The notes under the pieces are model-generated. The model searched no databases, was not told the origin of the DNA, and saw only the letters and a program-made list of their open reading frames with translations. This document shows positions 22,054 through 22,466 of a DNA stretch of 64,000 nucleotides, piece by piece; the first letter of the stretch is position 1, and each line of letters begins with the position of its first letter. The stretch lies in NCBI RefSeq assembly GCF_044647545.1, contig NZ_CP172818.1. The stretch is one strand, 5' to 3'. The stretch is from Escherichia coli. Its GTDB lineage: Bacteria; Pseudomonadota; Gammaproteobacteria; Enterobacterales; Enterobacteriaceae. Position numbers and translations under genes: made by a program.

Positions 22054-22466
22054 TTTAAGTTAATATAAAATAAACCACCCTTTTCTTTAAAAATTTTATT
22101 TTTCTTTTCAAAAAAAAACAATTTAAAAAAAAAAAATATCTCTCTAAAAAAAAAAAAAAAACAAAATAAATTTTTTTTAAAAAAAGAAAAGAAAAAAAAA
22201 AAAAAAATGAAAAAAAAGAAAAAAAAATAAAGAAAAAAAAAAAAAAAAAAAAAAAAAAAAAAAAAAAAAAAAAAAAAAAATATTAAACCACAAAAAACAA
22301 ATAAAAGAAAAAAAAATTAAATAAAAATAAAAAAGAAAAAAAAAAAAAAAAAAAAAAAAAAAAAAAATAAAAAACGAAAAAAAAAAAAAAAAAAAAAAAA
22401 TAAAAAAAAAAAAAAAAAAAAAAAAAAAAAAAAAAAAAAAAAAAAAAACAAAAAAAAAAAAAAAAA
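22054..22466. repeat. Anomalous A-rich low-complexity block (near-homopolymeric poly(A)/poly(T))
   Basis: About 410 bp overwhelmingly adenine on the + strand, uninterrupted A runs up to 47-48 nt (22233-22280, 22402-22448); no coding potential, no periodic repeat structure. Confidence 0.9.

What the first reader, a model, noticed from the sequence alone, without database searches (positions are those of the whole stretch)
22054..22466. About 410 bp of near-homopolymeric poly(A) between convergent rluB and btuR
This is the only stretch the E. coli gene map does not explain. The rest of the window is coding-dense, roughly balanced-composition DNA; here the + strand is overwhelmingly A, with uninterrupted A runs of 47-48 nt (22233-22280, 22402-22448) and only scattered T/C/G. 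It has no coding potential, no repeat-spacer periodicity, no terminal inverted repeats and no recognisable target-site duplication. Flanking sequence looks native, including a hairpin at about 22467-22492. Homopolymers this long are highly unstable under replication slippage and are not a feature I know at this locus. Explanations in order of likelihood: assembly, sequencing or synthetic artefact; a deliberately engineered insertion; or a genuine insertion carrying a poly(A) tail (retrotranscript-like), which would be remarkable in an enterobacterium. If real, it would create a long U- or A-rich 3' extension on convergent rluB and btuR transcripts.
Basis: seen in the sequence. Interest (0 to 1): 0.6.

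Follow-up and report, generated by a model that had tools for sequence, protein, structure and literature searches.

The report
Garbled poly(A) filler replacing a gene island
The 410-base poly(A) stretch is really in the window, but it sits where every matching E. coli genome carries a 1.5-kb two-gene island, and it looks like a sequence-reconstruction artefact rather than real DNA.

Summary
Positions 22054-22466 are 79% A, with A runs of 48 and 47 nt, and nothing else like it occurs in the 64 kb.

The block is not an insertion into a short native spacer. The window is base-for-base identical to several complete E. coli genomes (for example ECONIH1) up to 22063 and again from 22509. Those genomes have 1,556 bp there, encoding two hypothetical proteins. 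The window has 445 bp.

The 445 bp are a patchwork:
- a copy of the island's first 34 nt that has lost 9 bases;
- 377 nt of A-rich sequence with no similarity to the island;
- a 30-nt piece from inside the island's second gene;
- the K-12-type short spacer carrying four 1-nt insertions.

Neither junction occurs in 5,426 complete E. coli genomes, GTDB representatives or JGI metagenomes. Both native terminators are lost.

Two further differences from ECONIH1 show the same pattern. A 663-nt ycjD segment is 100% K-12 inside non-K-12 flanks, and a 1-nt gap lies at a K-12-relative deletion junction.

Best reading: an in-silico artefact, where a large insertion could not be resolved in a reference-guided or otherwise reconstructed sequence. 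Not a real feature; low interest. Read mapping or PCR would settle it.

The parts
21178..22053 (+). rluB (23S rRNA pseudouridine synthase), intact and native
   Evidence: ORF. 100% identical to ECONIH1 and others. Annotation.
22054..22087 (+). Degraded copy of the left end of the rluB-cobO island. The first 10 nt are exact. The next 24 nt align to 33 island nt with 9 bases deleted, mostly G of the island's terminator stem (GGCCCTACGGGGCC becomes CCACCC).
   Evidence: Alignment (z=8.1). Exact identity to L003 ends at 22063. The terminator hairpin is -14.4 kcal/mol in relatives and -0.1 kcal/mol here.
22088..22464 (.). A-rich filler with no detectable relationship to the island or to anything else. 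The A fraction climbs from about 40% to 98% left to right, then stops abruptly.
   Evidence: Composition per 50 nt. Local and semi-global alignments to the island are no better than shuffles. Non-A bases do not match the island at any ungapped offset. TRF reports only period 1.
22465..22494 (+). 30-nt fragment identical at 29 of 30 positions to an internal piece of the island's second gene (L003 3486-3515). In relatives this piece lies 105 nt from the island's right end.
22485..22508 (+). Copy of the right half of the island-free (K-12-type) 39-bp spacer, with four single-base insertions. It overlaps the previous fragment at 'atatccggca'.
   Evidence: This sequence is absent from island-bearing genomes. 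No 28-mer of 22464-22525 occurs in 5,426 genomes.
22509..23099 (-). cobO (btuR) cob(I)yrinic acid a,c-diamide adenosyltransferase, intact and native
45891..46553 (.). Second mosaic in the same window. The ycjD segment is 663/663 identical to K-12 MG1655 and HS-01 but is embedded in ECONIH1-type flanks. ECONIH1 has a 7.9-kb TetR/RND/MFS island here instead.
   Evidence: Both junctions are unseen in 5,426 genomes.
57240..57242 (.). The only other difference from ECONIH1: 1 nt missing, exactly at the junction of a 123-nt deletion relative to K-12. The window equals K-12 with a clean deletion.

Best explanation
The A-rich block is not a faithful read-out of a chromosome. The source organism almost certainly carries the ordinary 1,556-bp two-gene island between rluB and cobO. 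The sequence in the window was produced by a reconstruction step that could not represent a large insertion relative to an island-free, K-12-type backbone. Likely candidates are a reference-guided consensus, patching or polishing step, or an insertion-caller's unresolved consensus. Shown: the reconstruction followed the sample a few tens of bases into the island from the left, with errors accumulating. It filled the unresolved middle with low-information A-rich sequence. At the right end it blended an island fragment that resembles the backbone's hairpin with the backbone's own spacer. Inferred: the identity of the tool and the reason it emits A. The same process would explain why ycjD is K-12-identical where the sample lineage has a 7.9-kb island. 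It would also explain why the single 1-nt discrepancy sits at a K-12-relative deletion junction.
For: (1) Apart from three places, the window is identical to ECONIH1-type genomes over about 62 kb. Identity stops at 22063 and resumes at 22509, and 445 nt stand in place of 1,556 nt. (2) Haplotype linkage: every locus with 0 mismatches in 2.1 kb of flank has the 1,566-bp island spacer, while island-free loci have 27-40 mismatches. In one search no short-spacer genome exceeds 97.1% flank identity. (3) Only two alleles exist in 5,426 genomes. The split places (6,662 minus 5,423 = 1,239) match the island carriers (1,235). (4) The block's junctions are absent from complete E. coli genomes, GTDB representatives and JGI metagenomes, and ORFs across it are not on record. 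(5) The edges show an error-process signature: 9 deleted bases in 43 nt next to 22 kb with zero differences, and a right end that mixes the two mutually exclusive alleles with four 1-nt insertions. (6) The A fraction rises monotonically from 38% to 98% and ends abruptly. (7) The interior bears no relation to the island. (8) All three window-versus-ECONIH1 differences are places where ECONIH1 has extra sequence relative to K-12. At two of them the window is K-12-like with breakpoints exactly at the homology boundary: 663/663 identity inside, but 2 SNPs within 15 nt and 5 within 57 nt outside. At the local 1.8-3.1% divergence, P(0 differences in 663 nt) is about 1e-5 to 1e-9. (9) A:T homopolymers of this length are reported to be unstable when propagated in E. 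coli (PMC11695563).
Against: No reads, quality values or assembly metadata are available, so the artefact is inferred and not demonstrated. I know of no specific tool that emits A-rich filler of this kind. A plain K-12-guided SNP-only consensus is excluded, because the window carries small insertions relative to K-12. The source record could not be found in any collection, so its method is unknown. The ycjD mosaic and the 1-nt indel could each be natural variation in an unsampled sister lineage.
Confidence: 0.6

Rival explanations
1. The block is purely in-silico filler that never came from reads. One possibility is output of a generative or infilling sequence model. Another is a deliberately planted decoy that overwrote accessory islands. 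Such a model would start by recalling the island, collapse into a homopolymer (a typical degeneration mode), and end by recalling the commoner island-free allele. Under this reading it is likewise not a real feature.
For: Similarity decays gradually and then runs away into homopolymer, with A content rising steadily. The right end blends two alleles that never co-occur. The replaced stretch runs almost exactly from the rluB stop to the cobO stop. A second island is replaced by the allele found in the most-sequenced strain, K-12. No public collection holds the sequence.
Against: Perfect 663-nt reproduction of ycjD, with breakpoints exactly at homology boundaries, is more natural for an alignment-based process than for generation. 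The 1-nt discrepancy at a K-12 deletion junction also points to variant application. No tool here can test for model-generated text.
Confidence: 0.25
2. The block is real chromosomal DNA. In this reading the island was lost and the break was repaired with A:T-rich homopolymeric DNA. The source could be captured poly-dA/poly-dT made by a DRT9-type defence reverse transcriptase, or runaway polymerase slippage.
For: Bacteria can make kilobase-long poly-dA with some complementary poly-dT (DRT9; PMC12483538). The block retains genuine island fragments at both ends, as a deletion derivative would.
Against: The edges are not sharp junctions. They carry 9 deletions and four 1-nt insertions next to flanks with zero substitutions. 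The right end contains island-free-allele sequence that an island-bearing chromosome does not possess. DRT9 products are uninterrupted, protein-linked, mostly single-stranded and associated with cell death, whereas this block is 79% A with interspersed T, C and G. Annotated relatives covering most of the window, and the gene names for the rest, show no reverse transcriptase. Long A tracts shrink during propagation in E. coli. No other genome has the block.
Confidence: 0.06
3. The block is a deliberately engineered insertion, for example a segmented poly(A) template cassette or a scar left after deleting the island.
For: Segmented A runs separated by single non-A bases superficially resemble the spacer-interrupted poly(A) designs used to stabilise mRNA template plasmids.
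Against: There is no FRT, loxP, lambda-Red priming site, T7 promoter or I-SceI site. There is no ORF or UTR upstream to be tailed. The segment lengths are irregular (48, 32, 24, 47, 17 ...). The edges are degraded and chimeric rather than designed.
Confidence: 0.03
4. The block is a retrotranscript-like insertion with a poly(A) tail, or a mobile element.
For: It is A-rich. Nothing else supports it.
Against: No transcribed body lies 5' of a single terminal tail; A runs are spread over the whole 380 nt. There is no target-site duplication, no terminal inverted repeats, no reverse transcriptase or transposase, and no Rfam family. It replaces resident sequence rather than adding to it.
Confidence: 0.01

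Closest known systems
Unresolved or garbled large insertion in a reference-guided consensus, patched assembly or polishing step
   Same: The backbone allele is retained exactly up to the homology boundaries (ycjD). Errors are concentrated at the ends of an insertion the backbone lacks. There is an off-by-one at a deletion junction. The sequence is absent from all independent assemblies.
   Different: The long A-rich filler is not a documented output of any tool I can name, and the method and reads are unknown.
The natural rluB-cobO accessory island of E. coli (340-aa putative lipoprotein plus a 102-aa protein, both annotated as hypothetical)
   Same: It occupies the same site. The window keeps its first roughly 34 nt (degraded) and a 30-nt internal fragment. 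The window's flanks are the island-linked haplotype.
   Different: The window lacks both genes and both terminators, and 377 nt of unrelated A-rich sequence stand in their place.
DRT9 poly-dA synthesis (PMC12483538)
   Same: It is the only known bacterial process that makes DNA homopolymers of A hundreds to thousands of bases long.
   Different: Its products are extrachromosomal, protein-primed, essentially uninterrupted and linked to abortive infection. No reverse transcriptase or ncRNA is present in the window, and chromosomal capture has not been described.
Plasmid-encoded (segmented) poly(A) tails for in-vitro transcription
   Same: Long A runs interrupted by short non-A spacers, carried in E. 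coli.
   Different: Those are designed, on plasmids, downstream of a transcription unit, and of defined length. None of these features is present here.

Membership tests
Sequence-reconstruction artefact (not a biological feature) | Absent from independent assemblies of the same lineage and from public collections | tested here: met
   no match to either junction and no record with this spacing.
Sequence-reconstruction artefact (not a biological feature) | Haplotype-matched relatives carry a different, well-formed sequence at the site | tested here: met
   all loci with 100%-identical flanks have the 1,566-bp island spacer.
Sequence-reconstruction artefact (not a biological feature) | Error-like edges (clustered indels, allele blending) instead of sharp recombination junctions | tested here: met
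   9 deletions in 43 nt on the left. On the right, an island fragment fused to the K-12-type spacer with four 1-nt insertions.
Sequence-reconstruction artefact (not a biological feature) | No read support: coverage drop or soft-clipping at the boundaries | not testable with these tools
   No reads or source record are available.
Retrotransposed copy or non-LTR element with poly(A) tail | A unique transcribed body followed by one terminal A tail, flanked by target-site duplications | tested here: not met
   A runs are spread throughout, with no body and no duplication. The block replaces resident DNA.
IS element or MITE | Terminal inverted repeats and target-site duplication, with or without a transposase | tested here: not met
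DRT9-type poly-dA product captured in the chromosome | Uninterrupted dA homopolymer | tested here: not met
   79% A, longest run 48 nt, with T, C and G interspersed.
DRT9-type poly-dA product captured in the chromosome | DRT9 reverse transcriptase and U-tract ncRNA encoded by the host | tested here: inconclusive
   None is annotated in the relatives that cover window 20001-63460 or named for 1-20000. The rest of the genome is unavailable.
Engineered poly(A) cassette or deletion scar | Recognisable construction elements (FRT/loxP/priming sites, T7 promoter, defined segment lengths) | tested here: not met
Intrinsic bidirectional terminator between convergent genes | G+C-rich stem-loop of significant stability followed by a U tract | tested here: not met
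   the window hairpin is -8.8 kcal/mol (z -1.1) and no terminator-like site is found. Native alleles give -14 to -17.5 kcal/mol (z -2.7 to -4.2).

The most novel reading that the evidence does not exclude
A living E. coli of the ECONIH1-like lineage really carries about 380 bp of segmented poly(dA:dT) in place of the rluB-cobO island. This could arise by capture of defence-RT-made poly-dA/dT, or by runaway slippage synthesis during repair of a break in the island. It would be the first chromosomal fossil of homopolymer DNA synthesis in an enterobacterium.
Probability: 0.04. Interest if true: 0.85.

Novelty: not a real feature. Interest (0 to 1): 0.08.

Why it matters
If the verdict holds, the biology here is ordinary. 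The locus is a common presence/absence polymorphism: a two-gene island in about 23% of complete E. coli genomes, against a 39-bp terminator spacer in the rest.

The practical value is as a quality-control flag. This window is not a faithful copy of one chromosome. It shows at least two and probably three places where sequence absent from a K-12-type backbone was lost or garbled. Gene-content or intergenic findings from the same source should therefore be treated with caution.

The case would matter biologically only if reads proved the block real. It would then be an unprecedented stable homopolymer in E. coli.

Tried and rejected
- **N-to-A masking of the island (2-bit encoding of Ns).** Rejected. 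The length is wrong (445 against 1,556 nt), and non-A bases match the island at no ungapped offset better than shuffles.
- **Hidden colinear similarity of the interior to the island.** None found.
- **A third natural allele with this right end.** No 28-mer match in 5,426 genomes. No exact match in GTDB representatives or JGI metagenomes.
- **Locating the source record.** I tried the poly-Phe ORFs across the block, the cobO protein neighbourhoods and the ycjD junction. Nothing was found.
- **SNP-only consensus on K-12.** Rejected. The window carries 1-nt and 10-nt insertions relative to K-12.
- **De Bruijn-graph chimera of two strains.** Rejected by inference. ECONIH1-type SNPs lie 4 nt from K-12-type sequence, so no read k-mer of usual length could span that junction.
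- **Engineering scars and sequencing adapters.** None found. The only hit is an 8-nt ATCTCTCT match to the start of the PacBio SMRTbell adapter at 22138, which is too short to mean anything.
- **Rfam, promoter/terminator and inverted-repeat scans.** Nothing beyond low complexity.
- **Function of the island proteins.** No significant Pfam, NCBIfam, PADLOC or PHROG hit.

Full report
**Observation.** The stretch exists as described. Window 22054-22466 is 413 nt with A328/T57/C19/G9. It has A runs of 48 nt (22233-22280) and 47 nt (22402-22448), plus runs of 32, 24, 17, 16, 16 and 12 nt. It is the only 100-nt window above 80% A+T in the 64 kb. GC drops to 3-9% against about 50% around it. It lies between convergent rluB (21178-22053, + strand) and cobO/btuR (22509-23099, - strand). 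There is no real coding potential (only poly-Phe frames), no periodicity other than 1, no mobile-element-type inverted repeats, no Rfam family and no terminator-like site.

**What the locus looks like elsewhere.** Across 5,426 complete E. coli genomes the rluB-cobO junction has two forms.
- Most genomes have a 39-bp spacer holding a strong bidirectional terminator hairpin, atgccggacgtcatatccggcat. It folds at -15 to -16 kcal/mol, z about -4.
- At least 1,235 genomes (23%) instead carry an island of about 1.55 kb. It encodes a 340-aa putative lipoprotein and a 102-aa protein, both annotated as hypothetical, and it has terminators of its own at each end.
- In one search, the number of split matches (6,662 places minus 5,423 records = 1,239) equals the number of island carriers (1,235). 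These two alleles therefore account for essentially all genomes. No record has the window's spacing.

**The window belongs to the island haplotype.** Window 1-20000 and 20001-44000 are 100.0% identical to several independent complete genomes, including ECONIH1, Ecol_881, RS571, MS6198 and IMT16316. Against ECONIH1 the identity is exact up to 22063, which is 10 nt past the rluB stop and already inside the island. It is exact again from 22509, the cobO stop. In between, ECONIH1 has 1,556 nt and the window has 445 nt.
- Every fetched locus with zero mismatches in 2.1 kb of flank has the 1,566-bp island spacer.
- Every island-free locus has 27-40 flank mismatches.
- In one search the best short-spacer genome is only 97.1% identical.

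So the block is not an addition to a short spacer. It stands in place of the island.

**Anatomy of the 445 nt.**
- 22054-22087 aligns to the island's first 43 nt with 9 bases deleted. Most of the lost bases are G of the terminator stem: GGCCCTACGGGGCC becomes CCACCC, and ttaaGtataaa becomes ttaatataaa. The hairpin energy falls from -14.4 to -0.1 kcal/mol.
- 22088-22464 has no detectable similarity to the island. Local alignment scores are below shuffles, semi-global 30-mers give |z| of about 1 or less for most segments and never a positive excess, and non-A bases match no ungapped offset. The A fraction rises steadily from 38% to 98% from left to right and then stops abruptly.
- 22465-22494 matches 29 of 30 positions of an internal piece of the island's second gene (L003 3486-3515). 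In relatives that piece lies 105 nt from the island's right end.
- 22485-22508, overlapping the previous fragment, is the right half of the island-free, K-12-type spacer with four single-base insertions. Island-bearing chromosomes do not contain this sequence.
It folds at -8.8 kcal/mol, z -1.1, no better than shuffles.

**Uniqueness.**
- No 28-mer of 22464-22525 occurs in the 5,426 genomes.
- The right junction is absent from GTDB species representatives and JGI metagenomes.
- The left junction is absent from JGI metagenomes.
- The two ORFs spanning the block are not on record among 153 billion gene positions.
- Ten distinct neighbourhoods of the same CobO protein show only the 39-bp or island spacing.

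**Why this is not biology.** The flanks differ from their relatives by 0 substitutions in tens of kilobases. Yet 9 deletions fall within 43 nt at one edge and four insertions within 24 nt at the other. That is an error process, not divergence. The right edge mixes two alleles that are mutually exclusive in nature. Both convergent genes lose their terminators. A:T homopolymers of this size are reported to shorten when propagated in E. coli (PMC11695563). No construction scars, adapters or promoters are present. Nothing fits a retroelement or IS: there is no transcribed body plus tail, no target-site duplication, no terminal inverted repeats and no reverse transcriptase or transposase.

**A clue to how it arose.** The window differs from ECONIH1 at only two other places in about 62 kb, and both point the same way.
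- At fabI-sapF, ECONIH1 has a 7.9-kb TetR/RND/MFS island. The window has 666 nt holding ycjD. The inner 663 nt are 100% identical to K-12 MG1655 and HS-01.
- The adjacent flanks are ECONIH1-type, with 2 SNPs within 15 nt on the left and 5 within 57 nt on the right. At the local 1.8-3.1% divergence, zero differences in 663 nt has a probability of about 1e-5 to 1e-9.
- Breakpoints that coincide with the homology boundary to within 3-4 nt are not what homologous recombination produces.
- Neither junction occurs in 5,426 genomes.
- The one remaining difference is a missing C at 57241. It lies exactly at the junction of a 123-nt deletion relative to K-12, and the window equals K-12 with a clean deletion.

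So all three discrepancies are places where the sample lineage has sequence that a K-12-type backbone lacks. In each case the window shows the backbone state or garbage. This fits a reference-guided or patched reconstruction that handles substitutions, deletions and small insertions but not large novel insertions. This mechanism is inferred. I cannot name the tool or explain the A bias. A purely in-silico filler, such as generative infilling or a planted decoy, explains the gradual decay into a homopolymer and the allele blending about as well. Under either reading the block is not a real feature.

**Residual real-DNA reading.** Bacteria can synthesise kilobase poly-dA with some poly-dT through DRT9 (PMC12483538). 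Capture of such DNA at a break in the island cannot be excluded outright. The degraded, chimeric edges count against it, as do the interspersed non-A bases, the absence of any reverse transcriptase in the annotated neighbourhood and the block's uniqueness. I put this reading at about 4-6%.

**Verdict.** I classify the block as not a real feature, with low interest. The decisive test is read mapping or PCR across rluB-cobO, and ideally across fabI-sapF as well, in the source strain.

Noticed in passing
L003 2064-3619 (ECONIH1 NZ_CP009859.1 1535262-1536817); corresponds to window 22064-22508: The natural rluB-cobO island encodes a 340-aa putative lipoprotein (MIRYSGIFLSLLMLSGC...) and a 102-aa protein, both annotated as hypothetical. 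It is present in at least 1,235 of 5,426 complete E. coli genomes, in at least two sequence variants that share the first 385 bp. It has no significant Pfam, NCBIfam, PADLOC or PHROG match. This is a common, uncharacterised two-gene accessory module.
   Followed up: partly
window 45891-46553: The ycjD (DUF559) segment is 663/663 identical to K-12 MG1655 inside flanks of ECONIH1 type. ECONIH1 has a 7.9-kb TetR + RND efflux + MFS island here. Both junctions are unseen in 5,426 genomes. This suggests the window as a whole is a composite.
   Followed up: yes
window 57241: A single missing C relative to ECONIH1 in the puuR-puuC spacer, exactly where K-12 carries an extra 123-nt repeat-like element. 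The window equals K-12 with a clean deletion.
   Followed up: yes
L003 3486-3515 versus L001 2063-2085: The internal fragment of the island's second gene (aatgcggataatgacatggaatatcccgca) resembles the island-free terminator hairpin (atgccggacgtcatatccggca) at both arms. This could have led an aligner to place island reads on the short spacer. It may also be coincidence.
   Followed up: no
window 22138-22145: ATCTCTCT, the first 8 nt of the PacBio SMRTbell adapter, sits inside the filler. It is too short to be evidence and is noted only as a weak lead on provenance.
   Followed up: no
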